A DNA stretch of 63,450 nt, the filler included, from Hausera hauseri (Eukaryota): assembly GCA_046269625.1 (NCBI GenBank). It is 13 parts of 13 records of this genome, joined end to end, with 100 filler letters (N's around TTAATTAATTAA, not from the genome) between each part and the next. Parts side by side here need not be neighbours in the genome. Positions count along the whole stretch, not along the records: positions 44,915 to 49,356 come from JBJURY010579893.1; 12 more parts are not named here. One strand, given 5' to 3'. The position numbers were made by a program, and so were the translations under genes. The notes under the pieces are model-generated. The model was not told the DNA's origin. It saw only the letters and a program-made list of their open reading frames with translations, and did not search any database. Positions 1-54,756 of the stretch are shown one piece after another; the first letter of the stretch is position 1, and every line of letters begins with the position of its first letter.

Positions 1-253
1 GTACGGGTTGTCATTGACACGAATTGTGACTGATAAGATTTGTCATTGACACGAATTGTGACTGGTACGAGTTGTCATTGACACGAATTGTGACTGGTAC
101 GGGTTGTCATTGACACGAATTGTGACTGATAAGATTTGTCATTGACACGAATTGTGACTGGTACGAGTTGTCACTGACACGAGTTGTGACTGATAAGATT
201 TGTCATTGACACGAATTGTGACTGGTACGAGTTGTCACTGACACGAGTTGTGA
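1..253. repeat. Minisatellite: 32-bp unit built from two 16-bp subunits (e.g. gtacgggttgtcattg + acacgaattgtgactg), about 8 units
   Basis: Direct tandem repeats read in the sequence; the variable half alternates gtacgggttg / ataagatttg / gtacgagttg. Confidence 0.9.
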
Positions 254-5059: not shown

Positions 5060-7260
5060 GGGCACCACACCATCTATCCAGATTACTGTCCTTGGTATTA
5101 CTTTACCACCGTCTATAGTAGTTATCAGAGCTTCTTTTGGAGTCGAAAAATAAAACATTAGTTTCATGTTTCGAATCATAACTTTCTACTTCACCAGGAT
5201 AGTATATATCTACATAATTGTTGGTAGTGAATTGTTGTTGTTCTATTGGATATTCATTCCATCTTTTTACTTGAGGAATATCTGCTAACAATGTCCTCCG
5301 TTTCTTGCTTCGAACGGTGATTAAACTCCGTATCTTTTTTGTATTCAAGGATGAATTTGATTGAGACTTAGTTTTCTTTATTTTCTGTATTGGAGGTATA
5401 TCTTCATCATCATTAGAATTTTTTTGTTTCCATTCAGCGTCCTTCTTTATTAGGAAACAACTAGCTAAGAATGGAATCAGAGCATACATGATTTTACATG
5501 TTCATCCGGCAGCCTGTTTTATGCCATAGCCTTGTTTTATGATAGTAAGAAGATAGCTTTTACAAAGGATCCTAGCCATCCAGAGTTAAATTGACAAAAC
5601 CACATGTACCATCCCCGTTCGGTAACAAATATATCTCTAGTGATTCGTTTTGCGTAGTCTGGTCCCACTAGGTTTTCCCAATTAGCTTTTTCGTCATGGT
5701 CGGCTGGTACTTTCATAGCTATTTCTGTTAGGACTTTTTGTTTCTGCTGAGGGAACATCATCATTCTTCTGTGATTTTTCATATATTGTTCAGTATATAC
5801 GCCCATCTTTACCAAGCCTGTGAGTCGCTTATATGTTTGTTCGGTCTTTAAATTGAATAAGCTGACTTTTCGAGACGGTGAAATCTGCTCCTATTTAGGC
5901 ATTCGCTCCCAAAAACTGTCGCTCGGTCGAAATGTTGGCCACATGGTATACGTACAATTTTAGTATAAGTATGGTTTTTCAATAGGGTCCAACAATATTC
6001 GAGTAATCGGTTGTAAAAATCTTGGCTTTTTATTATACCAAACTGGTAGTTCCATGATACAATCATTAGTTGGTCTTAACTTGATAGTTACTCTCGTACA
6101 TTCAGAAGTTACAAGGATTTCTCCCACTGTTCGCGCAAATTTTCCTTCTGCACCAGGTAATTCATCTGGATCCTTTACTATTCCGTTACTGTGGACAGAT
6201 ATGTTCTGTTTTTGATTATTTCTCTGTTTGGTTTGCAATCGTTTAATATCATTTCTCGATACATTGTATAAATATTCTCTTGTTGACAGTGATAAATGAA
6301 ATTAATCTTGTTGTCAAAGTATCGGTGTGGCTTTACTTCCGATTTATAAATTTTCTTTATTCTTCTTTTATTTCAAAGGCGAATATTCCTTTCTAATTCG
6401 TTCAATATACCACTTTTCACACATTTTGGTATCATTTTCTATTTTGAATCTCATTCCTTCACTTGGATCTTCTGAGTATACTATAGTTGAAGTTTCGATC
6501 GTATCCGATACTCGATCCAATGTGCTTTTTGATATTTCTTCTTTTTACATTCGTCCTTTTGTTTCAAAGAATTTTTCAGTTCTCTATAAGGCTAACTGAC
6601 ATTGATCCTTTTCAACTTCATGCGCCATTATCGATTCACCCGTATCACATTCTTTACTTTAATGACCACATTCAAGGAATATCATCATTTTTACTGATGA
6701 TAATTCAAAAAGAGCATTATCTTCACTTAGCTCGACTTGGTAGTCCTCAATGGCTATTACCTTATCCAAAACTTCACCGTTTATATTGTAAGATTCTCCC
6801 TTACAATAGCCTGTCTTATCAATTGGTCCGGCTATGAAAATTCTCTTGCTGCTAACTTTTCGTTTTTGAGCCTTTAACCGAATGCCTCCTATGTTAATTT
6901 GTTTCATCACAAAAGCTTCTATGCACATCCATTTACTTATCAGAAGTGATTAGTATGGGGTTGATGGCTCCACTATGGCTGAGTTTGTGCCAGTAGCTGT
7001 AAATAAAGTGGAAGTAGTTTTTTCGCACAAGGCATTCTTTCACTTTAGTTTTTACAAATTCTGATTCTTGGTAAACATAATATTCTTTATGGGTTGTTGC
7101 AGTTAATGATGTCGGAGTAGCGTACGGGCATTTTTCTATATCCTACAGAGAATGTCGGACCTTCCTTAGCTTGACTACAGTCATAAGCACAAAATTAAAT
7201 TGAAGTAATGGTAGAATTTTAATTACCCGAAACAGATCAATATCTGACTGTTGATTCTGC
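5060..7260 (-). mobile_element. Retroelement copy 1: decayed class III (chuvirus/gB-like) glycoprotein, TM region, cytoplasmic linker and start of protease (truncated)
   Basis: AYDCSQAKEG...EKCPYATP...YQESEFVKTKVKECLVR; IAGPIDKTGYCKG; GKFARTVGEILVTSECTRVTIKLRP..CIMELPVWY...PITRIL; GVY...MMFPQQKQ; ALIPFLASCFL. Colinear with the copies at 18595-20409 and 46836-48600. Confidence 0.85.
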
Positions 7261-7299
7261 TATCTTGTTTTACCGGGTGGAGTGTAGACCTGCAGCTTG

Positions 7300-17194: not shown

Positions 17195-18594
17195 NNNNNN
17201 NNNNNNNNNNNNNNNNNNNNNNNNNNNNNNNNNNNNNNTTAATTAATTAANNNNNNNNNNNNNNNNNNNNNNNNNNNNNNNNNNNNNNNNNNNNGAAAGG
17301 AGAAGAAAAGAGGAAGAAAGAAGAGTAACCTCAGTACACCCTCATTTGAAGGTCAAACTACACCAATATTTAATGAAGCTATATTAGAAAAAGTAATAAA
17401 GAATCCAGGTGTATATCTAGACGAAGATGGTATTATTCAAGCAGTAATGACTGTCATTCCAAATAATATAATTAATATAGACAAAATGACTGCTGCGATG
17501 TTGAAGGTAATTACTAATAAAATAACAGCGGAAAGGATAAATGAAATTTTGGCACAATTGGTATTATTAGCACAAGATACTAGTCCTTAGAGAAATAGCA
17601 AGGACAGTGTTAACCAAAACTGCTGAAGATGAGATAGAAAGAAATGAAACTATCAGAATAACGGTGAAAGAAGGAAACCAAGATATGAGGGTCATCAGGA
17701 TGAACGAAACAGATTACATACAAACTCTACGAGAAAAGATAGAAGAGTTGGAACCATTTTAGCAAGGGAGTCCTAATGGATAAAATTATTATAGAAGGAA
17801 ACTATATAGCTATGATAAACTATTGAAAATTGGATGCAGAAATGAGAACTACAATCCGAAAGCGATAACAGAAAAACATCCAGAGGAGAAAATACAGGCA
17901 ACAGTGGATAATATACTAAGAGAAATGGAACCGCAAGTAGGACCTCCCCCAGGCGATACACGCAAGACGTTACAGTCCAAACAGAAGTTAAGAGAAGAGG
18001 TAGACCAAAAGGAACGATGATACGTGACATTCGCAACAGAAAAGACCAAAACGAAAAAATAGTAAAACGTTTATTATTAGAAGGAATAAACGTTACTCCC
18101 AAATCGGTGGATATAGACCCATTATTAAAAACTCTACTAGCTAAGCTACATACGTCATTTGCCTCATTTGATATGCAGGTAATAATCCCAGACAAATTAT
18201 TCACAACATTACGTAATGGTATGCTACGAATAAGTAGAATCTAGACGAAGAACGGATAAATGAAATACATGAATTGGATATTTTAGAAAAGATGATGGCA
18301 ACCGGAATCACGCGAGAGAAAGCTCAAACGGCTATATCCTATCTTCTATACAAAATAATAGTAATTAATTACCAAACTCAAAATCTAGAAATTGAGAGTA
18401 ATATGAAGACAGCCGTAAAGATTTTGAAAGATACGTTAGGAAATTGGGTTGAATGAAGAGGTGGATGGCTGACCAGCCTAATGACCTATATATTGAGGTC
18501 AGGTGAACGAGAAAGAATAATAACTACGCCAACTGCGACGCAACCAAAAACCTCCAGACAAGGTATAACAGGCATGTCAATAATGGAGATTCAA

Positions 18595-20409
18595 TAACGT
18601 CATTATTAATGCCAAAGGCCGTGGGAGTAGTGGCTTACGATTACTCTAAGCCTAGCGAAGGACAAAAATATTCTCTAGTTGATTTAGAGAAGTGTCCAGA
18701 AGCCGACCCGCAACAGCTAACAACGACAAGTGGTCCTACATACTGTATATATCAAGAATCTGAATTTATAAAAGCGAAAATTAGAGAATGTTACGTAAAG
18801 AGATAATTCTTCCTTTTTAATTGTGCCTATTACTCTGGAAATTCGGCCATAATCGAACCCACAACACTTTTCGAACCGATAATAATATCACGAGCAAAAT
18901 GCCAGGATGCTTTTAAAATTGGCATAATAACTATTCAAAACGCGCATATATCGGCAGTTCGAAACAGAATAAAATACACCAGGATTTTCAGGGCAGGAAG
19001 AATAGATAAAACGATGCAAGGCACCTGCAAAAAAGTAGATTATGACGTTGGAGGTACCATCGCACCTAGAACGGTAGCCATAGAAGATTATCAAATCCAA
19101 ATGAAAGAATATGAAGGATTATTTGACTAACAAACGAATTTGATGACGACTATGGGTGAGTGTGAATATGATAATGGTGAATGCGATACTGGAGAGTCGA
19201 AAATGACATGGGGAACCTCTGCAAGTAAATGTCAGTTGACGCTATTAAAATAAGGAAAATGTAATAAAACAGTAGGAAAAACGGCGAAGAGACAGCGACA
19301 TATAAAGAAGGAATAAAGGAAGTCAAGATGACGGAAGTGGCTACAATTGTATACTCAGAAAATCCAGAAGAAATGATGCGATTCAAAATCACTGGAATAA
19401 TAAGTGTAGCGAAGAAATATCGAGAACAAACTATACGGGTATTTTCTTATCATAAAAAGAAATACCTGGAGCAAAAACGAAGATAGATAAGAAAGATATA
19501 AAGCTAACGCAATATTTCGATAATAAAATTGATTTTTTAATCAACTATGTACAAAAAGAGATTAGAGGTTTATACCGAGAAATAATAATAAACGAATGAA
19601 AATTAAACTACGAAATAATACGAAATAAAATGGCCCTGATAATAACAAACCCCGACATGGTAGTGCCAGTTATGCCCTTTGGCGACGGAATTATTGGAAA
19701 AGTAATGGGTGAGGTATTGATAACAATAGAATGCAAGAAGGTAGAAGTATCAATCAGGCCAATGGACGAATGTACAATAGAGTTACCCGTAGTCTATCAT
19801 GCAGAAGCGAGATATGTGATGCCAGTAACCAGAATACTATTAGATATTAATGTGAAGCCTAGTCCACTATACAATTGCACCTTCAATAGGTCGCCAATGT
19901 TTAAGATCGATAACGGCAAATGGATTAGAACACCAAAAAGAGAACCAGTGTCCAAACCGGAGATATTAAACTTGATTAATTTGCAGATGAATCAGAAATT
20001 TGAACCGTTAACAGGAATATCACAGGGAGGAATTTACAGACAACAAAATCTAGAATATTACCGACGAATGTTGTTGTTTCCCCAACAGAGACAAAGGGTT
20101 ATAAAAGAATTAACCAGGAGAGTAATGTAGGACGGAAAAGGATCACCATAAAGGGAAAATCTAATGGGCAAGGATTATTTAAAGAAAGTAACAAGAAACG
20201 TTATGAAGATGTGGAGAAAATTTTTATATTTTGGTAAAGCAGCATCCGGTTTTCTAGCCATATATTTTATTATTAGCGCAATACGGACAGTATTTACGGC
20301 ACTAGGTAAGGCATATGTAATACATGCAGCAATAGGATGCTCATGGAAAATTCTAATAGCCGTAATACCGGCAGTAGCGAGTTGTTTTCTAGCAAACGAG
20401 GCACGATAA
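18595..20409 (+). pseudogene. Class III (chuvirus/herpes gB-like) envelope glycoprotein
   Basis: ITSLLMPKAVG|VVAYDYSKP..QKYSLVDLEKC; GIIGKVMGEVLITIECKKVEVSIRPMDECTIELPVVY...PVTRIL; GGIY...LLFPQQRQ; hydrophobic ASGFLAIYFIISAI and WKILIAVIPAVASCFL. Confidence 0.85.
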
Positions 20410-20642
20410 AAAAGAAGATATTTCAAAGGAAAAACAGAAAAAATTCCCCGTATAGTATACCTGATAATAACGATATCGAACATGATCAAGTAAAAGTAAA
20501 GGCAAAGCACAATCGAATAACTAGTATTAAACAACTAGCACTGAAGTCACGAAAACAGAAGTACAGACAAAAGTTTGTAACGGAGTTACCACATCTAAAT
20601 CCCGCAGATGAATATCATTGACAATTATATAAGGAACAACCG

Positions 20643-23398
20643 TTGGTGAACCCCTCAGCTTCTCGATACGTAATGTATACAGGATTGTACCCTATACATC
20701 AAGTACAACAGATGAAACAAAGTGTTGACTTGACACCCTATAAATACGAACCTACATGTAAAACTGATAATAAAGGCAAACGGCATCTACTTATAAGACC
20801 AGAAATAGAAATAGAGGTGAATGGATATCCAATGATGGCCCTGTTAGACACTGCATCTACAACAACGATAATGGGAAGGAACCAATTACCAAAGGAGTTA
20901 AAAAGAAAATTACGAATACCGACAACTACATTAATAAATGTAGGAGCATTCGGCACAGAAGAGGAAATTAAGATGGTCTTAGATGCCTGAATTAAGATCG
21001 GCAAACAAATTTTGAAACATACTATAAGGATAGCAGATAACTTGACTAATGAAATTTTAATCTGGTGTGATATATTAAACCAATTGGAAGATGTCTACAT
21101 AGATGAGAACATGCCAACTTAAGATGTTCGATAAAGACCGAACTGAGGGAATGGTTTCACTAAAAATGGACATCACGATCCCACCGCGATCCGAGATAGT
21201 GGTACCCGGAAAGATAGAAAGTCAAGCATTACCGGAAGATATTCACTTTGAACCATTCCCACAAGTTATGGAAAAATATGAAGCCCTAATCGCCCCTCAT
21301 GTAGATAAAGTAATGGATGAAAAAGTCCATTTACGAATTTGTAATACGACAAACAAAGAAAAGCAATTACAAAAGAATACTAGACTGGGAAAAGTAATGA
21401 CCATCGAAGAAATAATAATACAAGAAATCTGCTCGACAATTTCAGACGTAGATAAAATAGAAAAAATAATGACAGAAAAACTGAAGAGGGAACCAGATGG
21501 AGATAAAGCAAGAAATAAAATCACAAGTATTAACTGGAATGAAAAGTTACAGAAATGCGAAATCTTACCTAAGTAAGAGAAGAAGATGCTAATCGAATTA
21601 CTGGAAAAGAATAACAATCGATTTTCTCAAAATGATTATGATCTGGGTACAATGAATATAATACAACATACCATTAAGTTAAAGGATGGACAAGATAAAT
21701 CAATCAAGAAAAGACCTTATCGATTAGCATACGATAGAAAACAGGAAGCACGAAAAATAATAAAACAAATGAGAGAAAACAAGATAATTCGACCAAGTTG
21801 TTCCTCATGGACAACTCCAGTGGTGATGGTAAAAAAGAAAGGTGGAACTGAGATTTTCTATAGACTATAGAGCATTAAACGAAATAGCGAAGACAGATAC
21901 GTATCCATTACCAAGAATTGACGAAATACTAGATAAAGCACATGGATCAACAATATTCTCAACGATTGATTTACAAAAGGACTACTGGCAAGTGGAGGCC
22001 AAAGAGGAAGATAAACCAAAGACGGCGTTTTCAATCGTAGAAGGGCTATGAGAGTTTAATAGAATGCCATTTGGATTAAAGAACGGACCGCTAACATTCT
22101 ACAGAGGGACAGAACTCCTGCTATTATATGCCCCACATGACATGGTGTATATTGATGACTTAATAATAGCATCACCGAATTTTCGACAACATCTAAGGGA
22201 TCTACAAGATCTTTTTGATAGATGCAAAATAATGGGTCTAAAGATAAATCCAAAGAAATGTTCATTTGCTCACGCGGAAGTAGATTTCCTCGGACATAGA
22301 GTAGACAAACATGGTGTAAAACCCCGGAACAGACTTTTAGGAAAAATAAGAGACTTTCCGAAGCCAGGTACAGTTAGGGAGTTATGTCGATTCTTAGGTT
22401 TGGCAAACTATTATCGACGGTTTATAAAGGATTTTAGTAAAATTGCGAGACATCTGTACGAACTATTACAAGAAGACCTAGACAAAATTATCTGGACGAA
22501 TGAATACCAGAAAACTTTTGAATATTTAAAGGATAGACTATTAACGGCCCCATATTGATCTATCCTGATATGACCAAACCATTTATCGTGGCAACAGACG
22601 CAAGTGATTACGGAGTAGGAGCCGTATTATCACAAAAGGGCGAAGACGGAAAGGAACACCCAGTAGCTTATGCTTCACGAAAACTCAATAAACACCAGAA
22701 GAAATATGCGGTGATAGAAAAAGGACTATTAGCAGTAATATTTAGCTATAGAAGTATTTTCACCGTATATCAGCGAAAATAAACCACTTTTAATTTATAC
22801 AGATTACAGGCAGCTTTAATGGCTAAAGCAGCATGAGAATCCGAATAGCAGACTTCTACGATGGGCTCTAAAGTTACAGCCTTTTACGCTTAATTTCCAG
22901 TATAAACCTAGATCACGAAACGCAAATGCGGATTGCCTATCTAGAATACCTAATAATCCAGAAATAGAAAAAGCAGTAGTTGCAGCCGCATTCAGCATTG
23001 ATGGATTCGTAGAAAAAATTAAGGCGAATCAAAATGAAGACGCTGAAATAAGGGCCATTCGGAAATACATAAGGGACAAAACCATACCGGATGATAGAGA
23101 ATTAACCCGCCATTTGGCCCGATTCAGTGAAGCTTACGAAGAAAGAGAGGGATTTTTATATTTTATTCATCAAAACGGACCTGCCTTAGTAATTTCTAAG
23201 AAAAATAGAGCAGATCTATTGACCCAATACTATGACGGACTACTCGGAAGACACAAATCAACCAGTAAGACAATTAATAAACTGAAACGTAAATACTTTT
23301 GGCTGACGATGACAAAAGATGTACAGGAATGGTGCGACAGTTGCAAATTATGTGCTACCCGGAAGAACACGGGATCAAAACACAAAGCACCACTTAAA
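20643..23398 (+). pseudogene. Ty3/Gypsy Pol: aspartic protease, RT, RNase H, integrase N-terminus
   Basis: ALLDTAS; SSWTTPVVMVKKK, IDYRALN, YPLPRIDEILD, MPFGLKNGP, VYIDDLII, FLGLANYYRRFI; TDASDYGVGAVLSQ; integrase H..KYFW..M..DV...CDSC..C. The RT-RH-INT order is Gypsy-type. Confidence 0.95.
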
Positions 23399-30283: not shown

Positions 30284-33282
30284 CGCCGAAACTGCGCCTT
30301 GCTGGTGTATATAACCAGACACTTTTCACTGTTGCACAGGCGCATATTGAGCCGCTTTTCAGATTTTTCACCGTTTTTCCGTACAGAGAACTGTTTTTCA
30401 TCTTGTAATAGTCATTTTCGAACGTTGTACAAGCTTCGGCTCCTTTCTGTGAATTTCCATAAATGTACGCCTTAAATATAACCTATTAATTGAATCGGAT
30501 AGCGCGATGTAATTGTGCATTGTGTACACCGCACTGCATGTAAAATTGCAGCAGACGCCAATGAACTACGTAATTCAGCTTGGGTTCATGCATCATAAGC
30601 AGCTTCTTCTCCTTTGAGCTCGGCGGACATTGGCTGATTGTTGCGACTGGTAATTTGTCCAAAACGTCGTGCAGCTCATCTGGCACTACGAGATCGACTT
30701 CCATCATATAGCTGATTGAGCTGTTTAATGCCGTAACTGCTTTCGAAAGATTTTCCATTATGTCGTACAGTTCTTGTCTGTAGACTATCCATTCGAATGA
30801 ACCGTACGGCAAGGGTTGTGAATGTCCCAGCCGTACAGGTTATTAATATCAATATACAACACTGACGTTGTATCATCACTGGTTACGTTATCATTGTTGA
30901 CAAACGTCATGCCGCCACAAATACCAACATCGAACAATCGGTATATTTCCGGGACTTGCAATAGCTCAATGTCCCGATTTAGTGACATTAGTGCTGACGC
31001 CCAACTCATTCCCGGTATAGAGTAGCTCGAAATGTCTGGAACACGACGGCTAATATGTACACGTCCTGTTTCAGATACTGGAGCATGTACTCCAACAAGT
31101 TTTTTGCACCTGAGCTCTGTTCAGCATCCCTGTACTTTCTGCCATTCCACTTTTGTTATAGCAGAGCATTGCGGCGGCAATTCTTCTGTCATCTGAAGTG
31201 GCTCGTACGATATCGCAAAGTCATACGGGAATATGCCTTTGCTACGTGCAGTATGTGTGGGGAACTGAGTTGACGTTATCAGCATATATAGTAAGGCATA
31301 TACTAACTTTGCCAGTGATTAATTGAAAAGTTGCAATGAATCAAGGAATCGTACCTGGAACCTGTTTATACTAGCAAACAAGGACAGGTACTTCTCCATT
31401 GTTGTCGGGATTACTGATAGTTTCCAGTGAGGAAATCCATTAATGGCCCACTTTCAGATCTGCTGACTGTCATAATTTCTGAAATTATGAAAGATAATCG
31501 GCAGGAATGATCGCACAGGCCTTGCTAAATTGCATGAATTACATGCTGCGCTCAAGTATCGATCGGTAAAATGATCATGGTCCGGTACGAGTCGTTCCTG
31601 TGCACCAAACGACAATATTTTGTAGCACAAATAGCATTCATTGGTGGTAGCGAAAAGCAACGGTTCATATTCGTCTGTCCAAATCAATGGCTTATTGCAA
31701 TTGTTGCGATACCACGGTTCGATTTCCGTTTCTACTATTGCTTCCAACTGGTGCAGGTAATCGTGTATACAGTTCCAACTGTGAAACGTGTAATACCATG
31801 GCTGTCCTGCGGCTTTTATTGGTACAACTAACATACCGACGGCGATCGGAACATATTTTTGGTCGTATATATTGTGCCGTGGTAGGATTTCCTCGATATC
31901 TGTATACACCACATATGCCGGACTGTCCGTTTTCGACCAGTCACTGAATCAGATCTCCTTTTTGACTGGTATGACGTACATTTTTGTTCCTGAGCAATGT
32001 TGTCTGCATAGCGTCACACGTTTGTCCCATGCTGTTTCTGACTAGAAACCATGCAAACATATAAGACACCATTTACATCGTATTTGTTTCTGGATGAACT
32101 GATCATGGGTCATGTTCAATAATCTGTCCGAATTTGTCACTGCCACATAATATTTTTCCTTTCTCTCTAACAATAATAAATATATTTGGCGTCCATTTGG
32201 GTTCCCACTTCGGTAAATTATGTCCACATGTGGGTTCTTGTAAATTTCTTCATCCGTCGGTATTTCTATTATTGTATTATACCGGAACACGTTTACTGAC
32301 AGTGTCGGATTACGCCGTTCAAATGTCGGAATTAGTTTCAATTTCATCGGTATCCAATCTTCGTCAAATTGCAATTCGGTGAAATACTGTCCATACTGAT
32401 TTGGACGATTTGCATTGTGCCTGTTCACTTCGCTTTACTTTAATACTGCCAGAATACTGTAAAGGAAACAGTATTCATCATTATTTTGTACATTCACTAC
32501 CGCACAAGACTGCTTCAGAGCTGCAGGTGTCGGTATGAATGACCGGCCAGACAAGTAAATTATGTCATTCGACTTTGTAATGATAAAGCCGAAAGTGACA
32601 ATTTTTATAATTTGCTATTCACTACCCTTTTCGGTGTAGTTGACAATTTTTCATCTAGCTTTTCGCCTACCTCTGTGATAAAGTCTTCTGAATACTGCAC
32701 GGTTGGATGTGGCAGGTACCACTGTTTCCTGTTACCTTGTAGATTGTCGAATTCTGAAAGTGCGTAATACTTCAATTTACAGTGTTGCTGTTGATGTTGG
32801 AATTTCTTCACTTCAGATTCCAACCGGTGGCTTACACTGGACGGTACATGCCTCAATTCTGTTTTGTTCATGCTGACGTACAATCTGTTCAGAGCGTATT
32901 TAACAATAATGTCGGATTCCTGCTGCTGTTGTTTCTGTTCTTCTTCTTGCTGCTCGGTACTGGTTCGGGTGTATTCGTCAAGACTTATTGAGGCCTTACG
33001 TTTCCTACTGGTTGTTGAGAGGATGCTGCTTTTTGTTGCATCCATTAGTACTTGTTTTTTCGACCGCTTAAACTGGTTTAAGTGGTTTTTGTGCTCGTTG
33101 AAAAATTGTACATAGTTAATTTGTTCATTAAGTATTGAACAACCGGGGAAAATATAGGCCCGTTTACCGTGCGCCGTTGTGACGCTATTGTATTGTTCTA
33201 TTCTATTATGGCAATCATCAACGTCATACACCTTACCACTAGTGCAATACTGTGGACATGTAGGGCAATGCACAGTCATCAT
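30284..33282 (-). pseudogene. Polinton/adintovirus-type pPolB, copy B (with N-terminus), convergent with copy A, 3'-truncated
   Basis: Same motifs on the minus strand: SFIPTPAAL, CFLYSILAVL, VYTDIE, DHDHFTDRYLSAACNSCNL, FHNFRNYD, LYIDINNLYGW, SLYGKT. Confidence 0.9.
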
Positions 33283-38622: not shown

Positions 38623-39939
38623 TACTTCAATTATTTTATGTAGATAGTGCTGATCATTGGTATGTCGTTACTTGGTTTCTAGAAAGTCAGTCTACGTAGA
38701 CACAGACTGTCCGGCTAGGGTCGCCGAATGTCATGTTTCGGTGGACCCTATTCAACACCCAATCTATAACAATACTTGTTTAGGTTAATATAAATTTAGC
38801 ATGAGCATAATATTTTTACAAATTCAATTACTGTGTGCCGTCCTGTGTTAACGTTTAATCAAATCTCGTCTTAGCTATATAATTTATAGTAGATTGTAGC
38901 CTAATTGATTCTGAAGTTTCCATTAATGGGTGGTGGAAAACTGTTAAAATGTTTTTGTAAAATACAAATTTATTTTAATAAAACAACCAATATTGACGTA
39001 CAATGTCAAGGTTTTTCTCGGCAAAAATAACAAGTGCCGCAGTTTGTGGGATCAAATCACGGTATATGATTCAACTCCAAAAATTTTCCAATAAATCGAT
39101 TTTCAGCGTTTTGACACTTCGATTCTACTGTCTATTCGCGCCTGTCTCATTTGATTTTCTATCTGGTTTATATACTTGATTTTAGCGAACCATCTCCATG
39201 ACGGAATTTCTATAAATATTTTGACGTTTTTTCTTGTTTGCTGCCATTAATCAATATTATGGATTAAGGCATTAGTCACCGTACACAAAAAAATAAGTTT
39301 TGCCGATATATTTTGTTTTCCCGTGAGTCCATCGGAAACTGCGATTNNNNNNNNNNNNNNNNNNNNNNNNNNNNNNNNNNNNNNNNNNNNTTAATTAATT
39401 AANNNNNNNNNNNNNNNNNNNNNNNNNNNNNNNNNNNNNNNNNNNNTAATCCTCTATGCGCAGTTCTTATAAGTCGCTGTCTACTGAAGAACTACATCAA
39501 TTTGTCGTGGGAAATTAAGGACCTAATAGCGATAAAATATGTCATATCAACTTGAAACATTAAAATATTATATATTTCAGATCTTACTTCAAAATATTAA
39601 GAAATAATCGAAAAAATACTAATTAAATATTACTGTCTGACAAGGTACCTTATATTGAAAACTAAACTTAATACAGTATTCTTAAATGATTGGAACTATA
39701 TATTTTGATTTTAAACGAAAGTATTACACTATGAAATTTTACAGATTACATGAAACGGTAAATACATCAAAAATAGCTCGGTAGTAGAAAAGAATTGTAT
39801 TCAGTAGTCAGTAAGGATATCATAATTAATTATTTTAACAAGTTATATCCCAATTATCCTTTTCTTCATTGATTTAAAATAACTAGTTAAAAACAAAACG
39901 AAAATAATTGTTGTCAATTATTTTATTAAAGAATAATAA

Positions 39940-40650
39940 TTATACATTAAAATCTAAAGAAAAACGTGTTTGTTCAAAGTGTTCATTGTGGGTCATTTTT
40001 AAAATTTCAATGGTTCGGTTGGTCACTGATTTTAAATTTTCTATTGTATCTGAAAATATGCGAACAGTTCCAACAATGTGAAACATCACTGCTTGAATGT
40101 ATTGATCATTTTTGACACCACTTAGTTTACTATTTGGATAGTAAACAAGTGTACCTTTGTCTTTACCTCTATCTTTCGTTTGTCCATCATCATCATTATA
40201 TTCCATATATTCCTGATCGTGCCAATCACCGTTATATATATTTTGAAGATTTAATTTAAACGGCAATCTAAAATATCCAAAAATATTGAATATTTTGTAG
40301 CCTTTGAATTTTATTTTATAGCCACGCTCAGATACCTTTTGTATTTTTCTAGCAATTGCTCTTGCACCCATCTTTGCATCAGCAATTGACTTTGCTCCTC
40401 TTATTAACATTTTCCCATTGCTAAATATTTGAGCCTGTTTGAAGCGTAAACCACTTTGCTTAAATTTTTTCGTAATGAGTGGTTCACGGATTTCTACAGA
40501 AACGTATGAACCGTAAATTCCATCGGAATGTAATTCCGTATTGGCTAATTTAAATGCCAGTTGTTTAATGTTAATTGGGCAAGATAAATTGACGCTTGCA
40601 TTTACATTACAAATTTTCAGCTTTAACGTATCTTCACTGTTTTGATTCAT
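39940..40650 (-). CDS. Intronless divergent TATA-binding-protein family member (TBP/TRF-like), 236 aa
   Basis: ICNVNASVNLSCPINIKQLA...IREP...AQIFSNGKMLIRGAKSIADAKMGARAIARKIQK...KFKGYKIFNIFG...PFKLNL aligns with TBP core repeat 1 and the start of repeat 2. The ORF is intact from ATG to stop. Confidence 0.9.
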   Translation of the reverse strand: MNQNSEDTLKLKICNVNASVNLSCPINIKQLAFKLANTELHSDGIYGSYVSVEIREPLITKKFKQSGLRFKQAQIFSNGKMLIRGAKSIADAKMGARAIARKIQKVSERGYKIKFKGYKIFNIFGYFRLPFKLNLQNIYNGDWHDQEYMEYNDDDGQTKDRGKDKGTLVYYPNSKLSGVKNDQYIQAVMFHIVGTVRIFSDTIENLKSVTNRTIEILKMTHNEHFEQTRFSLDFNV

Positions 40651-44600: not shown

Positions 44601-44914
44601 TCTTTTATGCGCATTTAAATATACAAAGTTGTAAATGTTTACCCTGTCATATGCGGAGTTTTACTATATGTGATTCGAAATTATATGCATAACTTAAGGA
44701 AAAAATTGGAAATTTTAAACCGTTCTTATAATCGGAATAATCCTCTATGCGCAGTTCTTATAAGTCGCTGTCTACTGAAGAACTACATCAATTTGTCGTG
44801 GGAAATTAAGGACCNNNNNNNNNNNNNNNNNNNNNNNNNNNNNNNNNNNNNNNNNNNNTTAATTAATTAANNNNNNNNNNNNNNNNNNNNNNNNNNNNNN
44901 NNNNNNNNNNNNNN

Positions 44915-47900
44915 AGCGATCTTCCTCCTCTATCTCTACTTGCCAATAGTCAGATTGCAAATCGAGCGTAGTAAACCATTTAGCTCCCGAAAGTCTGTCT
45001 AAGGCTTCCTTTAATGATGGTAACGGAAAAGAGTCCTTCATCATAAGTGTATTTAGTGCTCGACAATTGATACAAAATCGGTATTTACTGGTACCTTTCT
45101 TCTTAACCATAAGTATAGGCGAGTACCAAGATCGGTAGCTTGGTCTAATTATGTCGGCCATTAACATTCGTTCAACTTCCTTAGTTATCTCTGGCCTTAG
45201 CGAATGTGGAGAAGGATACCATTTCGGCATCTTTTGATCCTCTAAGTCTATTTCGTCGTTAGTTCCCGGCTTTTTCTTCAGTGGAATCGTGAGCCTTAAG
45301 GTTTTGGCTCGATCAATATCTTCCTCATTTTTCGCGATAATTGAGCTATAGCAACAAAGTAGTTCGTAGAGTCGACAATATGATTCTGGTGAAAATCTAG
45401 TCTCGACATTGGGTGGAAATTCAGCACCCTTATATGGTTTTTCTTCTATAGTAATGGACGGTACTCTATATGTGTGCCCTAGAGTAGTACTGGCGTACAG
45501 TTTGGTTGGAGTAAGCGCATTATTCGCTATTTTGATTGTCACGCGGCTTGTTGATACTCTTGTCAAAACATTGCTGAGCACAAGGTTTGGATCGAGCGAT
45601 TCCTTTGATTCGAAGTATATTGGCTGATAGTCATCCTGACGTATCTAGACGTATTTCTGTTCTGGGTGGTATGGTCTCGTCCACTGGAATCCATACATGT
45701 CCAAATTTTCTGTCTTTAGTGGTTTTAACTCCTTTTATTGGGCCAAGTACTACCAACTTGCCTGCATTGAAATTAATTGCTATATTAGGTAGTTGCCTCA
45801 ATAGATCGCACCCTAACACTACGTCATCCGTTAGCTGCTCCATTACTGAGAATTCGTGATGAAAAATTTGTCCCATTATGTAAATTTCTGGTTTCCAACG
45901 GAATTTACTTTCGACGATTGCCAGAAATCTCCAATGCTTTTTGGATCTGTCGTAGGAGGTGGATATAATTGTTTCCGTAAGAATTGTAGTATCGAATCAT
46001 ATTTTATCAGTGATATTTCAGATTCTGTATCTATTAGTGCATAAACCTCCGAATCTTCCAATTGAATCTTCGCGAAGGGCCTGCCTTTAATTACCGTACC
46101 GTAATAGTTCGGTGCTATTTTGGGTTGTCGTATGGTAGACACTTTATAACCGTTGATGGTAACTTCAGTGGTTCCAACTGGCTGTTCGACTAATTGTCTT
46201 AACTCTCCAATTGGGTATAGTTCGTTATTCGTACCGTTCGCATTTTCTACTCCTTGGCTTTTAACTGGCGGCTGAACATCTTGATTTCGGAAATTGCGTG
46301 TCTCACAACTTCTGGTAAATATTGACTGCACTTCATTTGGTTTAGGCACTCTAGGCGTGTAAATTATACCATGGTCGTCAACTGCTGGTCGACGATGTGG
46401 AGCAGACGTCTTTTCCGTTCCACGGATCTTACGCAATATCCCGTAGCGTTTGGTTCCTTCGTAAGGATCTTCTAGATTGAATGGCTTCCGATAGATGTCT
46501 GTCTGGCACGAACTCATAGATTGTTTCTCGCAATCTTCATACATAGGTGCCGTTGGTGGCAGTATCGGTAATGGTAGTTTCATAACAGAGTAATTTTTGT
46601 GCCTACCTGGCCTGGAGAAGACATCCCTACCTTAGGCTCGTCATCATCAGAATTATATCTTCGCGTCTTACTTTCTACGCATTTTGCCTGTAATCAAATA
46701 TGCGTCTTTTACGTTTTCGATTATGGTAGCCAACATGTCGTTCTACCTCTATTTTCCATTTACTCTCTTCATAAGCCTTTAAGAATTTTCCAAAAGGATT
46801 AATAATGGCCGTTAAAATTTTGCACGAAAATCCTGTCAAGTAAATATCTCGTATCTATTTATAACCGCTTGAATTATCGCTTTTATCAGTTGCATTAAGA
46901 AATATATCGGTACAAATCCTGACACGGCTTGTCCGAATATCAGGAATCTTCCCCAAATTTTGTATAATATTTCCGTAGTTACCTTCTTATAGTAGCCAAC
47001 ACCAAGTAATGACTCCAATTTTGCCAGGTAACGTGAGTCCTCTAGTATTGTATGCATCGCCCTATTCAATTCATGTGTGCGCTGACGAGGAAAAGCGAGA
47101 AATTGTCTAAACGCCTCTACTTCTTTTGGTCGGTAAATACCCTTAGCGGCTGTATCTTGAAACTTATCATCGGTTATTCCTTTTATTAGATTTGTACCTG
47201 TTAGCTTTGTAGGTGGTGCAATAATACCACCATTTGGTAAACTTACCCAATCGGTTTCGCTGCGTCTAAACATCGGCTCTCCTAAACTAGTTTTACAGTC
47301 TGTCGAAATAGTTGGTTGAGTGGCGTTCGTCAACAATACTCTGGTAATTGGTGTTGCTAACCTCGGTATATCTTGATATATTACCGGAAGCTCTTGTATA
47401 CACCTCTTCTCTTCCACATTAATCGGTACATCTTTCTTCTCGCACTCATACGTCAATAACACTTCTCCGGTTACTCGTCCAAAAACACCTTCCTTCATCG
47501 GAATTATTGGTGATGCCAACTCGAGGTTTGCGTATATTAGAGCTAATTTAGTTCTCATGATTTCCAGATCCAATTTACAGTCGTTTGTTATTATTTTACG
47601 GTATAATTCGGCTATTCCGGCTTGTGCCTTATAGTAAAAATAGTCGTCTCTGTTCTTTAAATAGTCTTCAATCCGGATGTCCTGAGTCTCGAGTTTGAAC
47701 GTTCTAGCGTTTATTTCCGTTTCGGCTACGAAAAATGCTTCGTAGTTGGTGGCATATATTACGACGTCGCATCTAGAGAGTATGTCTTTCTTTATAAATT
47801 TTAATCCGTGATCATCAGAAATCAGTATTGTAGGTGTGGATTGTTCGGTCACATCCTCTCGCGTTTTAGAGTTAGTTTCCGGGCTACTTATGTACCGTTT

Positions 47901-49356
47901 TCCCGTTGTCTCGTTGAATTTCAGTTCTTTAATTCTAATAAAATTACAATCACTATTGGCTGGGGGTTCCCAAATTACTACGGAATTTCAAAATTGGCAT
48001 GCGCCATCCTGAATATGGCATTTGTGGTTCTCCGTGTAAAGCTTAGTAACACTATGGAACATTACTTTCTGCATACGCATTTCAGTTTCGTAAAAATCTA
48101 CTACTACGACGTTCGGCTCTAATCCCTTTCCGGTATCGTATTCCACACCTTGACAATGTCCCGTGTGCATGTCTAGCCTTCCGGCCGCTATTTTGTATAC
48201 TCTGACTATTTTTCCTTTCTGTATCTCTAGTTCCATGCCACCCCACTTTATTCTTCCCGTCTCTCTTGCTTGCTTACAATGTTGTCGTTCTAAATTCATC
48301 GGAATTGGTGGAGTCGTCGGTTTGATTATTGATAAGTGTCCATGTATCAGCCCACAAAAGAAGATGTTGCGAAATCGTCGCAACATGCATTCCACCCCAT
48401 CTAATGCAATTAGTTTACGTTGTTGGTATAATACGTAACTCTTTTCTTTTGTTTCTAATTTGTGTGGTCTCGCGTCCTCACACATTTCCAAGTCCATTAG
48501 AGAGTACTTTTGTCCAAGTCTAAATTTGTCACAATCATATACCGTGACTGCACCCATTTGTTTTATCAATATCATCATGGTCAAAAAGTTTATTAACCAA
48601 TTCGATTCATTTCCTCTGTAATTCCCAGTTACATTTCGTAGCAGGTCTCCGAATCCATTGCTATCGAAGGAAAGTCTAGCTTGATGCTCTTCTTCTTTTT
48701 CAAATAACTTCGTCCAGTCCACTTCTCGAGGCAGTTTCCTGGCGGCCTTCCTTGCTAAGCTAGTTGCCTTGTTAAGTTTATTTTCTTTATTCGGGTTAGT
48801 TTTGATGGCCAGATATAGCAACACCTTCCTCAGTTCCTCCGTGGTGTTTTCTACCATAATTTTCTGAATTAACATTTTATCACTCAAGGTTCTCTTGGCT
48901 AGTTTGCACCGGAGGCCTTTCATGGCTTTGGCGGCATTAAATATGGCCTTCTCTTTCTCATCTAACATATCACTGTTTAGGTTGGAGTGGCTTACTATTC
49001 GTATCAAATCCTTCATTAGTTCCTTCACTTTCTCATTATCTGCACTGAATGTTACTATGGACATTTGCCTCAATTCTTTAATCAGGTCTTCATTGTAGTC
49101 GTTCTCCTCTCATACCCTCCGCGGTCTACCGACCGGATGTTTCTGTTTTGTTGCGATAGGTGCGTTACCATGAAGGGGTCCTAAATTCTTATCGTATTGT
49201 TCATTATCTTCATCTGTATGTAGATATTCGAAATATACTACCCATCTCGGACTCCTATTATTTGTCCTACTTGCTGCTGGGCTTTAGCCTTCCTTATAGC
49301 CTCTTCTTTTGTCTCGTCGATAGCTATGGTCACCACTAATCGATTTATCTCGTCTG
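44915..49356 (-). mobile_element. Retroelement copy 3: helical domain - internal signal peptide - gB-like glycoprotein - TM - linker - PR - RT (runs off the contig)
   Basis: ORF 47988-49073 contains WLINFLTMMILIKQMGA|VTVYDC..KYSLMDLEMC...CMLRR..FFCG..HGHLS...CKQARETG...AAGRLD...CQG. It continues in frame past one stop into 46836-47852 (GRVTGEVLLTYEC, CIQELPV, TM). Then ALIDTES and VLGCDLL (PR), and SWYSPILMVKKK...FTTLDLQSDYWQV (RT). Confidence 0.92.
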
Positions 49357-49456: not shown

Positions 49457-52400
49457 TGATAAACAAAAACACGGATGTCATGGCCAGAAGATTGATCGAC
49501 GACGAAATATTTGAATATAGAGTGCCAAGGACAATGATATCTGACAGAGGAAGTTATTTTTGCAGCGAACTTATGGAAAAAGTATTGGAAATATTAGGAG
49601 TTAATAATAAATTTACATCGCCTTACCACCCACAAGCCAACGGCACGGTAAAAGCTTTTAATAAATAATTTTCAATTATAATATCCAGTTATGCATACGA
49701 TCACCCGACTGATTGGGATCTATATATAAAACCCTGTGTATATACTTACCACCAAAGTCCTCACACGACAACCGAAGAATTACCCTTCTTTTTAATATAT
49801 GGCAGATGAGACATTATGCCAACTGACCTCAAATATAGACCACCACAGTCACAATTGATAGAGGAACCGGATTATGCAACAATTCTACAAGAAAGATTGC
49901 AAGAAGCATGGATCAGAGCAGGGTTAAAAATTAAATATCACCAAGATAACTACAAGGATCAGTACGACAAGAAAACAAAACCCCATGTGCAACGAATCGG
50001 AGACTTGGTTAATATACTGGATGAGACATGTAAACCCGGTGAAAGCCCGAAACTGAAATTACCATACACAGGACCATATAAGATATTACAAATTACTGAA
50101 TCAAGAGTGGAATTACAAAACCTCTCCAACCCGAGTAAAACCTTTTGGATGAGTGTGCAGCGATGTAGACCAGTAGCTAAATAGCGCAAATTGGAACAAA
50201 CATCACCTTGCAAGTGTCCATTAAGGAATAGAATGCAGTTGGAAGACGAGAAGATGGAACTGACAGAACCTTGTAGGTACCAGTTGAGGAAAAGAATACA
50301 GTCGGAGGACAAAAGTACAATGATGGCATTCATAGAATACGGATCAAATAATATCGTAACCACAACTATAACTATAAATAAAGTTAAAATTGAAGCCACA
50401 ATAGATAGAGGAGCAGCAAAAAATTACTTAAGTAAGACTACAATAGAAATTTTCAAACTGAAATTGAGTGAAAGTAACGAGATAAACCACAAACTAATAA
50501 ATGGTAATCAGCTAAAGGTGATAGGCGTGGTCATAGCCTTGACCAAATTAAAAAATAAACGATCAAAGATTTTGTACCACATATTAGAAAATTCCACCAT
50601 CCCTTGTATTATAGGTAGAGATACGTTAATGGATTATGATATAGTAATAGACGTAGCTACAAACTCGCTGGAGAAAACAAAAGACCTGGAGAAATATCGA
50701 AAAAGCGTGAACGAGCTAGAGGAAGAAATAAAAAGGTTAGAGTTGTTATATAATATGCATTATCGTCAGATTTATAACGATTATCCTCTATTGATACCAA
50801 TATTGGTTAAGGTGTACGGTAAGTATGTTAATGCGGAACTTGATACCACTACTCCCTGACACGTATAAATTTGCGACTGTATAAACGAATTACACATTAT
50901 ATACCTGAGGCATGCGGAAAATTGAATTTAACTATAGGGTGTATTGATGTTACCTGTTACGCCAACCCACAAGAGTCGTAATTTGATCTTATTATTGGTT
51001 TAGACGTACTATACAAACTGACGGGTGCAGAACTCAAAGTTATCGGAAGATCAATAGTATTCAACTGCGAAGGTTACCAAGATACCAAGCCTCAATATAA
51101 TGATCAATGGTGGTTCGCGCCAGGAGAAGAGACTGTTTCACCTTCATTAAATTATGTTACATTAAAGCAAATGAGCGAACATGATACAGAATCTACATTA
51201 GCAAGAAAAATAACGCAAACAAGGATAATAGAAATGCCTACAATTAATACTCCACCTACAATTTTTGGAAATCCTTTTAAGTTGTCTACAATAACCTTGT
51301 TAACGTTAATATTGCTTATAATATTCGGATGTGCGGACGCCCAACCAACGCACACGACCACTGCTGCAAATACGTGGAACAGTACGGTCATATTAATGTT
51401 GATATCAGTATATTATGTGTTTAATAACCGTATTGTAATTGATGATGAGGAAACAGATAATCTCTCCTTGAATGGTCAAGCAAAAAAATGAGTACCTTTA
51501 CCCTCAATAACCGACATAGATACTTGTTCGACAAGTAGTATAGCAGGCATTCCACAAAAACCACCACGAAATTCGTTGCAAGATTTATCAAGACCTATAT
51601 CAACAACCTCAATATATCCTGACTTAATAGAAATTCAGACTTCAAGCGAGTTGCAGTCACCCGTAAATTATACTGTCTTAAGCAAGAAGTTAGAAGAAAC
51701 AGAAGAGAATATTAAAGGTTTGAGAGACGAAATTAAAAAATATTAACCGGAAGAGAGTTCAAAATCGGTAATGTATAACGAAACTAAATTAAGGAAAATA
51801 GACACTACTAAGCAAATGCAACGTAAAGAAGTCAAACCAATTGAGCAGAATTATTTTGAATTGCCTCCAAAAAAAGGGAAGAACCTGCCACCACTCCCAT
51901 TGACCAGAGAGGCAGCTAATCGACACCGGCTGGAGAATTTCCTGTTGACTACACCAGAACGCATAAATCATACACAACAACTACTCAAAGGACCTATAAA
52001 TAGTATAACGGAACTAAGAGATTTCCTTAGCAAATACCACGAAAAGTGCGGAATAACGGACGAACAATATAGACCCATAATAAAATTAATTTGTGAAGAT
52101 CTAAAATTGGATTTCAATACATTAACCACTCTGGATAAACTTTTTATAAAGTTAAGCTGAGAGGAGATATATTATACGATTCCTGATTTAGCTAGCCCAG
52201 GAAAATCGCAACACCATGATTACGTAGCTGCTAGCCGAGCATTAAAAATTCATAAACATTACAATATAATCATAGGAGGTCGAGAACTTATTAATGGAGT
52301 AGAGGAAGTTAAACTAGTCTGGAATATAAGAATGGGACAGCCCCTAGATAGTAATCTTCCTCCTGAACAGTGGATGAAAATAGATCGATTACAATTTGCA

Positions 52401-54756
52401 GGAAATAGCATTAAATATATGGACGAGATCGCTAACGAAACAAGAGCAATGCACATCCAAGACCTTCAAGAAAAGGATAAAAAGCGAGAATCATCAGGTA
52501 TCAAGAGTTACTCCACATTTTCACTGGGAACATTATTCCTTATGGGAATATGCCTACTCTCCATGATTAGTGTAACAGAAGCAGTTGAGACTACCCCTTA
52601 TCGCTCCAGCTCCTCATGGACTTCGATGCTATTATATGTATTTTCACTATTGATGATGGGTAAGTTCTTATGCAACGACAAAGTTGAAGGAGAAGATGAC
52701 TTAAAGGAACTCAACGGTAAAATTTATATGGAAACGTATGAACAAGGGGAGCCAAAAACCCCATAAATATTGATCCAGTATCCAATAAAGGCCCATGTAT
52801 TCTAACTAGTACAAAATTCCTAAGGATGGTATGTGCCACAAATTTTCATTGGAATAAACGTTTTGGTGAACAAAGGGTTGTATGCGCCCCAAACTTCAGT
52901 CGGGATAGATGGTACGGCAAGCAAAAACATGAAATGCCTGAAAATATGGATAACACAATCCTCATAATTGATGACCCTAAACTAAGCGCAATGGAATCCC
53001 CTTTTCGATTTAACTATGGCTATCAAATGATTAGAGAATGTATGAATTATGACAAATTAGTGGAAATATTAAGGATGAATAGTGGAACACGAGTAAACCG
53101 AATTTCTTCTAATCTGAAGACGACACATTATATGTACAATAATGATCATGAATTACTTAGTTATAAATCCACTTGCAATAAGGAAACTACACCTACGTCA
53201 ACCTATCCTGATTATAGGAATATAGGAAGATATGAACCCTTATTCATTGGTAGTGTACAAGACAGAATTCTTTTCACTAATGCTCCAAGTGACAAAAAGA
53301 TGCAATTACCCAACGTGGATATGTTTATGCTATTACGACAAACATCTCCATCATGCGAAAAGTTCATAACTCAGGAGAAAGCTAGGAAAATAGGAAAGAA
53401 ATGTATTGGCCTGTACAAAAATTTTGGGGGAGAATTGGTAGACAAGACAACACCCGATTTATTTATGGTCAACTGTTGGTTGACTTACGTATTAATGACA
53501 ATAAAGGACGAATTAACAAAGGAAAAGATAGAAGAAATGGAAAAAGAAGAAACTCGAATATTATGGAATGGTTATTTACTTAGGAACGAAGATACACCCT
53601 TAACAGAAGAAGATAGTATTGAAATTACTCGACTGGAGCAAGTAAATGAAAAAGGGTTAACAGGCAATCTAAACGCCTTGCGATATCGAATGTTATTTTG
53701 TATGTTGAATAATGATCAAGTGTTAGCGGAACCTTTCAAAAGGGAGCGTGAAGAATACATTTGTAACCAAAAAATACAGGAAGATGAGTCGTCGCAAGAA
53801 ACTTTCCGCATAATAACAAAAATAATAAATTCTTTGGGAAGAAATAAAGAAACAGACAATGAAGTCAACAATAATGAAGTAAATCACACTCAAGAGGTCC
53901 ATTCGAGTTTTCCATCCGAGGAAATTCACCTAGACCCTTCATCCAATCAACGACTACCTGAAAAACAATATGAAGAACAAATACAATTTGAAAATGATTA
54001 TTCTAGTCAAATATATGTAATGACAGAACATAGGAAGGTGAATATACTCCATGAATGCACTTTCAACTTAGGAAAAAGATTACCATATCCAAATCAAAGA
54101 GCAGGTTGGAAGGACATTAATTCTACATATAAAGCTCCTTTGAAGAAAGGGAGATATAGTTGTCCTAAAGGAATAGTACAGAAGAGCTATGCTGACATTG
54201 AAGAATGGGGAAAGTTACCCAAATCACTAAAGGAAGTTATGGAAGAATTAAATAAAAATGGGTGTGAGTGGGAACCATATAAAATTAATAAGCATGTAGC
54301 ACCAGAACTAATAGAGGCAATACGAGAGGATATTAATCTGATACCAAAAGTAACGACGCACGAGACAAAGACAATTTTAGCTATCATAATGAAGGCGTTA
54401 TACCCCAAAGGAGTACATAATTATACAGTGGCCAATGAAGTAATTCCCTATTTTAGATTAGTAAATATTTAAGAATAAACCCAGAAAATCTTCCATCATT
54501 AAGGGAAGAAATGAACCAAGTGTTGTATAGACTGGTATATCAACCACTACACTTTCCGGTAAATTCAACAAGAATATGCCCAGAAGAAGAAGATATCTCA
54601 AATACTATAAAGGAGTTACGTATTATCGCCGACAGAAACGAACACTGGTTGGACGATATTGAACCAAAAACCGAATATGTCGCTCTACTTTTTCCTGATT
54701 ATCCTGACACAAAACTTTGTACATATGGGGAAACACCTAGAGTACGATGTAGAGAT
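49457..54756 (+). mobile_element. Gypsy integrase core and C-terminus followed by a decayed extension of about 1,500 codons (two protease-like domains, two signal/TM modules, long unknown region)
   Basis: ISDRGSYF, SPYHPQANG, DWD, PFFLIYGR, YTGPYKI (INT). Then in frame ATIDRGAAKNYL...IIGRDTL, followed by AELDTT...DLIIGLDVL. Hydrophobic pairs at about 51280-51425 and 52520-52670; 548-aa ORF 52826-54472. Confidence 0.8.

What the first reader, a model, noticed from the sequence alone, without database searches (positions are those of the whole stretch)
44915..49356. Best-preserved glycoprotein copy shows an INTERNAL signal peptide preceded by a conserved non-Gag-looking domain
In ORF 47988-49073 the cleavage-like site (LINFLTMMILIKQMGA|VTVYDC) lies about 175 codons into an open frame. 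The preceding helical, basic region (LIQKIMVENTTEELRKVLLYLAIK...REVDW) resembles the region before the glycoprotein in copy 2 (ILEKMMATGITREKAQTAISYLLYK...NWVE). No capsid or CCHC motif is recognisable in the 0.7-1.3 kb available upstream. Gag is therefore either further 5' or replaced by a matrix-like protein (inference).
Basis: partly seen in the sequence, partly recalled or inferred. Interest (0 to 1): 0.7.

Follow-up and report, generated by a model that had tools for sequence, protein, structure and literature searches.

The report
Decayed Burro-like envelope retrotransposon
This is a broken copy of a known kind of invertebrate jumping gene that writes capsid, accessory domains (one related to the cell-death regulator Bcl-2), envelope and enzymes as one long protein, which is why the envelope's signal peptide sits in the middle of the reading frame.

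Summary
The internal signal peptide is real. It ends 175 codons after the TTG at 49073 and precedes a class III, Monjiviricetes-type glycoprotein (Pfam E 3e-57), followed by a protease-like motif and RT. All 12 long relatives examined also carry it internally. Six of them have Gag zinc knuckles 233-625 residues upstream in the same frame, so Gag most likely lies beyond the contig end; nothing points to its replacement.

The upstream domain is Bcl-2-like in copy 2 and four relatives (Pfam, PDB profile, fold search: top 22 matches all Bcl-2 family). A weakly supported ubiquitin-like domain precedes it. This Gag-Ubl-BCL2-Env-PR-RT single frame is already published for planarian Burro retrotransposons.

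Copy 3's own domain could not be shown homologous. Direct alignment to copy 2 is at chance level, a forced profile alignment is only suggestive, and its model is low-confidence. Position, helix register and the Env tree suggest a heavily diverged Bcl-2-like domain (about 60%).

Verdict: a new, decayed member of a known kind. One inferred, untested point remains: the cleaved signal peptide may double as the Bcl-2 domain's membrane anchor.

The parts
44915..49356 (-). Copy 3: contig-bounded internal fragment of a Ty3/gypsy Gag-Env-Pol (Burro-like) element; both ends are contig ends at N/linker joins
49119..49130 (-). AT-hook-like GRP motif, 196 codons before the mature Env motif (224 in P0016, 190 in P0007); a stop at 49110-49112 separates it from the open frame
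   Evidence: Pfam AT_hook only E 8.4 in P0016
48684..49040 (-). Basic, predicted all-helical domain in the position of the Bcl-2-like domain; probably a strongly diverged homologue (BH1/BH2 signature mostly lost); homology not shown
48661..48675 (-). Splice-acceptor-like site (9/11 pyrimidines + YAG), 64 nt before the signal; no counterpart in copy 2
48549..48596 (-). Internal signal peptide / signal anchor with small-residue cleavage-like end
46839..48548 (-). Env: class III (gB / Monjiviricetes-type) fusion glycoprotein, broken by an in-frame stop at 47988-47990; TM about 46860-46916
   Evidence: PF24664 E 3e-57
45760..46070 (-). Degenerate aspartic protease-like region (recognised by motif only, no Pfam hit; frameshifted); linker 46632-46838 carries many stops
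45430..45700 (-). PR-RT spacer, dUTPase-like in Burro; weak support here
44916..45107 (-). N-terminal part of reverse transcriptase, cut by the contig end
   Evidence: RVT_1 E 7.6e-08
17646..17861 (+). Copy 2: ubiquitin-like domain (contains stops)
   Evidence: Pfam ubiquitin E 0.07-0.12; same place in P0016 E 0.031; PDB profile top hit UHRF1 UBL E 0.016
18101..18498 (+). Copy 2: Bcl-2-like domain (two frames; stop inside BH2 at 18454)
   Evidence: 57.5% identical to P0016 674-753; Pfam Bcl-2
18560..23398 (+). Copy 2: signal remnant, Env, protease, dUTPase-like spacer, RT, RNase H, integrase N-terminus (many stops and frameshifts)
5525..7292 (-). Copy 1: Env remnant, 56-71% identical to P0016 Env; nothing upstream matches

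Best explanation
Copy 3 is a dead fragment of a Ty3/gypsy retrotransposon of the Burro-like Gag-Env-Pol kind. In intact relatives one reading frame runs Gag (capsid, CCHC) - accessory domains (ubiquitin-like, AT-hook-like, Bcl-2-like) - internal signal - class III Env - TM - protease - dUTPase-like - RT - RNase H - integrase.

SHOWN: the domain order; single-frame continuity in relatives; the Bcl-2-like identity of the pre-signal domain in copy 2 and four relatives.

INFERRED from established membrane-protein biogenesis: the internal hydrophobic segment acts as a signal anchor that threads the Env ectodomain into the ER lumen, signal peptidase cuts after it, and the Env TM stops transfer. Gag plus accessory domains and Pol then both stay cytosolic and membrane-tethered until the element's protease frees them.

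INFERRED: the signal left on the N-terminal product sits 49-79 residues after BH2 and would anchor the Bcl-2-like domain much as a cellular Bcl-2 tail anchor does.

Copy 3's helical domain is most likely (about 60%) a heavily diverged version of this Bcl-2-like domain. Its Gag lies 5' of the contig end.
Confidence: 0.8

Rival explanations
1. Env is expressed mainly from a spliced subgenomic mRNA entering just before the signal (as recalled for Drosophila errantiviruses), so the signal is effectively N-terminal and the upstream domain is only the tail of Gag.
For: An acceptor-like site at 48661-48675 lies 64 nt before copy 3's signal. Only 2 such sites (>=9/11 pyrimidines) occur in its 4442 nt, and 5 in 12,847 nt over the three copies.
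Against: None at >=6/11 in the 250 nt before copy 2's Env, and only a 7/11 site in copy 1. The frame runs unbroken through the signal in 12 of 12 relatives, and Pol translated through this frame must pass the signal anyway. The site was noticed post hoc. This rival can coexist with the best explanation.
Confidence: 0.15
2. Copy 3's helical domain is not homologous to the Bcl-2-like domain of copy 2. It is an unrelated helical insert or replacement at the same position.
For: All local sequence tests are at chance. Reversed copy 3 scores like the real one, and unrelated decoys reach z about 4. The cassette varies among relatives (P0004, P0007 and P0013 differ).
Against: The forced alignment lands helix by helix in register over 119 residues and beats 2338 of 2340 natural decoys. 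It has the same spacing to the GRP motif and to Env and groups with Bcl-2-bearing elements.
Confidence: 0.4
3. The element has no Gag and the upstream domain is a matrix-like structural protein replacing it.
For: No Gag is detectable in the window; the domain is basic and helical.
Against: Only 808 nt (copy 3) and 1332 nt (copy 2) are available 5' of mature Env, while Gag knuckles sit 613-625 codons upstream in P0016 and P0007. Copy 2's domain is Bcl-2-like.
Confidence: 0.04
4. A free endogenised chuvirus/mononegavirus glycoprotein gene that happens to lie next to a gypsy pol.
For: The Env family is that of Monjiviricetes.
Against: The same Env-PR-RT order occurs in copies 2 and 3 and in one frame in relatives. 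These Envs form a clade apart from the more distant, mostly stand-alone glycoproteins used as outgroups.
Confidence: 0.01

Closest known systems
Burro / GYPSM1 giant gypsy-like LTR retrotransposons of planarians (Arkhipova and Yushenova 2019, PMC6431247; section 7 read whole)
   Same: Single frame Gag(CCHC) ... Ubi/SUMO-like - BCL2-like - mononegavirus-like Env - PR - dUTPase-like - RT - RH - IN, with Env in frame between gag and pol. Decaying fragments with stops and frameshifts are reported in Dugesia japonica.
   Different: Burro ORF1 is about 4,900-5,100 aa with MATH, BIR, ankyrin and Smc or midasin domains. P0016, the closest intact relative of copies 1 and 2, goes from Gag to Env in 810 aa with none of these detected by Pfam. 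Element length, LTRs and host could not be determined here. Copy 3's Bcl-2 signature is not recognisable.
GAG-ENV-POL errantiviruses with HSV/gB-type Env in Platyhelminthes, Bryozoa and Nematoda (Chary and Hayashi, PMC13524379; Results parts 1-3 of 5, Methods section 14, Discussion part 1 of 2, supplement rows)
   Same: Gene order and Env class. The paper notes ectodomains flanked by a signal peptide or by two TM segments. By eye (not computed) the Env motifs resemble the six Schmidtea 'Platyhelminthes_C1a' sequences more than the nematode, bryozoan, tunicate, insect or branchiopod ones seen.
   Different: That study covers intact copies. Its 7 supplements have no occurrence of Burro, Bcl, GYPSM1 or ubiquitin (main text not searched for these terms).
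Nematode NERVs (Sacco et al. 2022; not held; known from its citation in PMC13524379, continuous gag-env-pro-pol frame recalled)
   Same: Env placed before pol.
   Different: Nematode Env sequences in the eLife supplement look unlike these by eye; not tested directly.
Cellular and viral Bcl-2 proteins (Bcl-xL, BAK, A179L, BHRF1, KsBcl-2)
   Same: Fold, and BH1/BH2-like region with W-x4-GGW, in copy 2 and P0003, P0005, P0014, P0016.
   Different: Only 7-19% identity in the structural matches. The NWGR of BH1 is replaced, the domain is embedded in a polyprotein, and BH3 binding is untested.

Membership tests
Ty3/gypsy LTR retrotransposon | pol order PR-RT-RH-IN with gypsy-type RT and H2C2 integrase zinc finger | tested here: met
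   Copy 2: RVP, RVT_1, Integrase_H2C2 in order; colinear with relatives carrying RT_RNaseH and rve. Copy 3 is cut within RT.
Ty3/gypsy LTR retrotransposon | Flanking LTRs, PBS, target-site duplication | not testable with these tools
   Contigs end inside the element; no eukaryotic genome collection was open.
GAG-ENV-POL errantivirus (gB-type) | gB/chuvirus-type Env between gag and pol | tested here: met
   PF24664 5' of the protease-like motif and RT in copies 2 and 3; gag 5' of Env in 6 of 12 relatives.
GAG-ENV-POL errantivirus (gB-type) | gag present in this copy | not testable with these tools
   Only 808 nt and 1332 nt of upstream sequence.
Burro-like | Env in frame between gag and pol (single ORF) | tested here: met
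   In relatives P0004, P0017, P0007, P0008, P0015. In copy 3 the upstream domain, Env and the protease-like motif share one frame but are broken by stops.
Burro-like | BCL2-like domain just before Env (copy 2) | tested here: met
   scores shown are below Pfam's gathering cut-off
Burro-like | BCL2-like domain just before Env (copy 3, the finding) | tested here: inconclusive
   low-confidence model
Burro-like | Ubi/SUMO-like domain before BCL2 | tested here: inconclusive
   Weak but concordant in copy 2 and P0016 (Pfam E 0.03-0.12); 7 of 10 PDB profile rows are ubiquitin-like-domain proteins, best E 0.016; would lie at or beyond copy 3's contig end.
Burro-like | dUTPase-like region between PR and RT | tested here: inconclusive
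   1 of 6 aligned rows hits Herpes_ORF11 dUTPase at E 0.0077; 0 PDB hits.
Burro proper | Giant size (about 5,000-aa ORF1, up to 25 kb internal) with MATH/BIR/ankyrin domains | not testable with these tools
   Window copies are fragments; the nearest intact relative P0016 is compact between Gag and Env, which argues against Burro proper for that lineage.
Burro proper | Planarian (Dugesiidae) host | not testable with these tools
   Host not determined; AT-rich DNA and by-eye likeness to Schmidtea Envs are only leads.
Functional anti-apoptotic Bcl-2 | BH3-binding groove that binds BH3 peptides and blocks BAX/BAK | not tested
   No binding test run.

The most novel reading that the evidence does not exclude
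In these elements one hydrophobic segment does three jobs: it is the Env signal, the tether that holds Gag at the ER for envelopment, and after cleavage the tail anchor of a retrotransposon-encoded Bcl-2 protein with cellular Bcl-2 topology. The Ubl-Bcl-2 cassette is not confined to giant Burros but occurs in compact elements (Gag to Env in about 800 aa). In copy 3's lineage the fold has lost its BH1/BH2 signature and been repurposed, possibly as a basic membrane-binding, matrix-like module. I found no paper stating the anchor idea (searches; Grohme 2018 and Sacco 2022 could not be read).
Probability: 0.3. Interest if true: 0.65.

Novelty: new member of a known kind. Interest (0 to 1): 0.35.

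Why it matters
The architecture is published (Burro; GAG-ENV-POL errantiviruses), and the window copies are dead, so this is not a discovery of a new system. What it adds is profile and fold-level support that the pre-Env domain is a full Bcl-2 fold in several divergent elements, apparently including compact ones. It also gives a testable topology in which the Env signal doubles as the Bcl-2 tail anchor. If that holds, these selfish elements carry a membrane-anchored apoptosis-family module, a possibility the Burro review raised but left untested.

Tried and rejected
Homologue searches. Copy 3 N-terminal frame against longer proteins: 0 of 3789 candidates. P0016 residues 380-790: only itself among 5821. 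The Bcl-2-like profile: only its own 4 members among 7991 scored. No intermediate for copy 3 was found. The read-through had 0 PDB sequence hits. ESM Atlas gave no usable hit for the P0016 domain or the copy 3 domain.

Pairwise tests. Global tests of copy 3 against 4 members were reached by 36-226 of 500 shuffles, against 0-14 of 500 for member-member controls. hhalign probability 0.2%.

Interpretations rejected: matrix replacement of Gag, a chance neighbour viral insertion, and internal Met initiation (no Met in residues 86-177).

Rows dropped. Of the 16 best hits, P0009-P0012 were left out of the 12 'long relatives' because they start inside Env.

Not available. Cluster membership and source names of the relatives could not be looked up, so their hosts are unknown. 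Sacco 2022 and Grohme 2018 were not held. One literature search was swamped by an ambiguous term. No complex prediction was run.

Full report
Setting. The window is a string of short AT-rich contigs joined by N runs and a 12-base linker, so neighbouring contigs are unrelated. The finding is one whole contig, 44915-49356, read on the minus strand (copy 3). Related fragments lie at 17295-23398(+) (copy 2) and 5525-7292(-) (copy 1).

The observation. The frame 47988-49109 is open for 373 codons and continues, past one in-frame stop, into 46836-47987. Read through with X, residues 173-755 match Pfam Monjiviricetes_fusion (E 3e-57, from profile position 6). The only two strongly hydrophobic windows are residues 172-190 and 732-750. 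No in-frame Met lies between residues 86 and 177, so initiation just before the signal is not available. A degenerate protease motif and the start of RT (E 7.6e-08) follow. The copy is dead: there are stops at 49284, 49110, 47988 and many between 46632 and 46838, and frameshifts between protease and RT. The claimed likeness of the upstream regions of copies 2 and 3 is not significant on direct alignment (528 of 1000 shuffles for the quoted frame).

Relatives. A search of 1.84 billion representatives gave 670 hits at E<=0.001. The best are long polyproteins, 25-34% identical. Of the top 16, four begin inside Env and were set aside. All 12 others have a hydrophobic stretch before the conserved YDC-type Env start, 149-1365 residues into the protein. 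Six of the 12 carry CCHC knuckles 233-625 residues upstream, and P0004 and P0017 run CCHC-Env-PR-RT in one frame. P0016, whose Env is 56-71% identical to copy 1, is colinear with copy 2 from residue 378 to 753. Copy 2's contig therefore starts about 130 codons short of the knuckle. Copy 3 has only 808 nt upstream of mature Env. Gag is most simply off the contig.

Copy 3 itself. Its domain has no Pfam hit, scores 1.8 bits on the profile (418 of 1985 shuffles), and is not significant pairwise. However, its reverse scores nearly the same, and true members reach z 8-13 against 2.9. Its single-sequence model is seven helices at pLDDT 49.5 with no Bcl-2 match, which is uninformative at that confidence. 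Circumstantial support: its last Trp is 58 residues before Env (49-79 in members), a GRP motif precedes it as in P0016, and its Env groups with copy 2, copy 1 and P0016 (99/97) within a clade holding the other Bcl-2-bearing elements (long branch, partial rows). Against: P0004 and P0007 in that clade lack the domain. I put homology at about 60%.

Mechanism. Shown: the domain order and single-frame layout in relatives. Inferred from general knowledge of signal-anchor and stop-transfer topology: the internal segment translocates Env into the ER lumen and is cut by signal peptidase, and the Env TM returns the chain to the cytosol. Gag-accessory and Pol products then stay tethered on the cytosolic face until the element's protease releases them. 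The residual signal would give the Bcl-2-like domain a C-terminal anchor. A function in blocking apoptosis is conjecture. A spliced env RNA remains possible: an acceptor-like site lies 64 nt before copy 3's signal (2 such sites in 4442 nt), but none is seen before copy 2's Env.

What is known. Arkhipova and Yushenova (PMC6431247, section 7 read whole) describe planarian Burro elements as one ORF with Gag, Ubi/SUMO-like, BCL2-like, mononegavirus-like Env, PR, dUTPase-like, RT, RH and IN. [quoted passage not shown] Chary and Hayashi (PMC13524379; sections and supplement rows read) report GAG-ENV-POL errantiviruses with gB-type Env in Platyhelminthes, Bryozoa and Nematoda. By eye the Schmidtea Envs resemble this clade. 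Passages of PMC9094657 show Env inside a single Gag-Pol-Env polyprotein in nematode belpaoviruses; passages of PMC11410931 only mention Burro. Sacco 2022 and Grohme 2018 were not available. The element works like a Burro and meets the tested features of the GAG-ENV-POL kind. Membership in Burro proper (size, extra domains, host) could not be tested, and P0016's compact Gag-to-Env span argues for a smaller variant.

Verdict. The internal signal peptide is real and explained. The 'non-Gag' domain is Bcl-2-like in copy 2 and probably in copy 3. The architecture is already in print. This is a new decayed member of a known kind, interest 0.35.

Noticed in passing
window 49457-54756 (+): Separate contig with the integrase C-terminus (matches P0004 1948-2203 and P0002 2030-2401), then an extra protease-like domain (Pfam Asp_protease E 7e-06 at 50185-50856), signal-like hydrophobic segments at 51276 and 52518, and a 576-aa ORF of no known family (52742-54472). 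It resembles the post-integrase extensions of P0002, P0004 and P0013 and may be the 3' part of an element of this kind.
   Followed up: partly
relatives P0002, P0003, P0006, P0007, P0015: Two to four aspartic-protease motifs in tandem after Env.
   Followed up: no
relative P0013, residues about 110-290: By eye, an exonuclease-like (DEDDh-type, recalled motif) domain stands before the signal instead of a Bcl-2-like domain, so the pre-Env cassette looks exchangeable.
   Followed up: no
window 49300-49356 (-): The first codons of the contig, in another frame, look like the last strand of the ubiquitin-like domain of relatives; too short to test.
   Followed up: partly
window 39940-40650 (-): Divergent intronless TBP-like ORF (Pfam TBP E 5.7e-16) on a contig whose two ends share an identical 77-bp sequence (39447-39523 and 44738-44814), possibly a circular element or assembly overlap.
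   Followed up: no
window 27892-32542: Inverted duplication of about 2.3 kb, 74% identical, holding decayed ORFs that look by eye like Polinton-type DNA polymerase B fragments.
   Followed up: no
window 8845-11455 (-) and 25011-26351 (-): Other decayed gypsy-type RT fragments with no Env match.
   Followed up: no
window 1-253: 64-bp-period tandem repeat, about 94% identical.
   Followed up: no
whole window: Contigs are joined by N runs with a TTAATTAATTAA spacer, so adjacency across these joins is artificial.
   Followed up: yes
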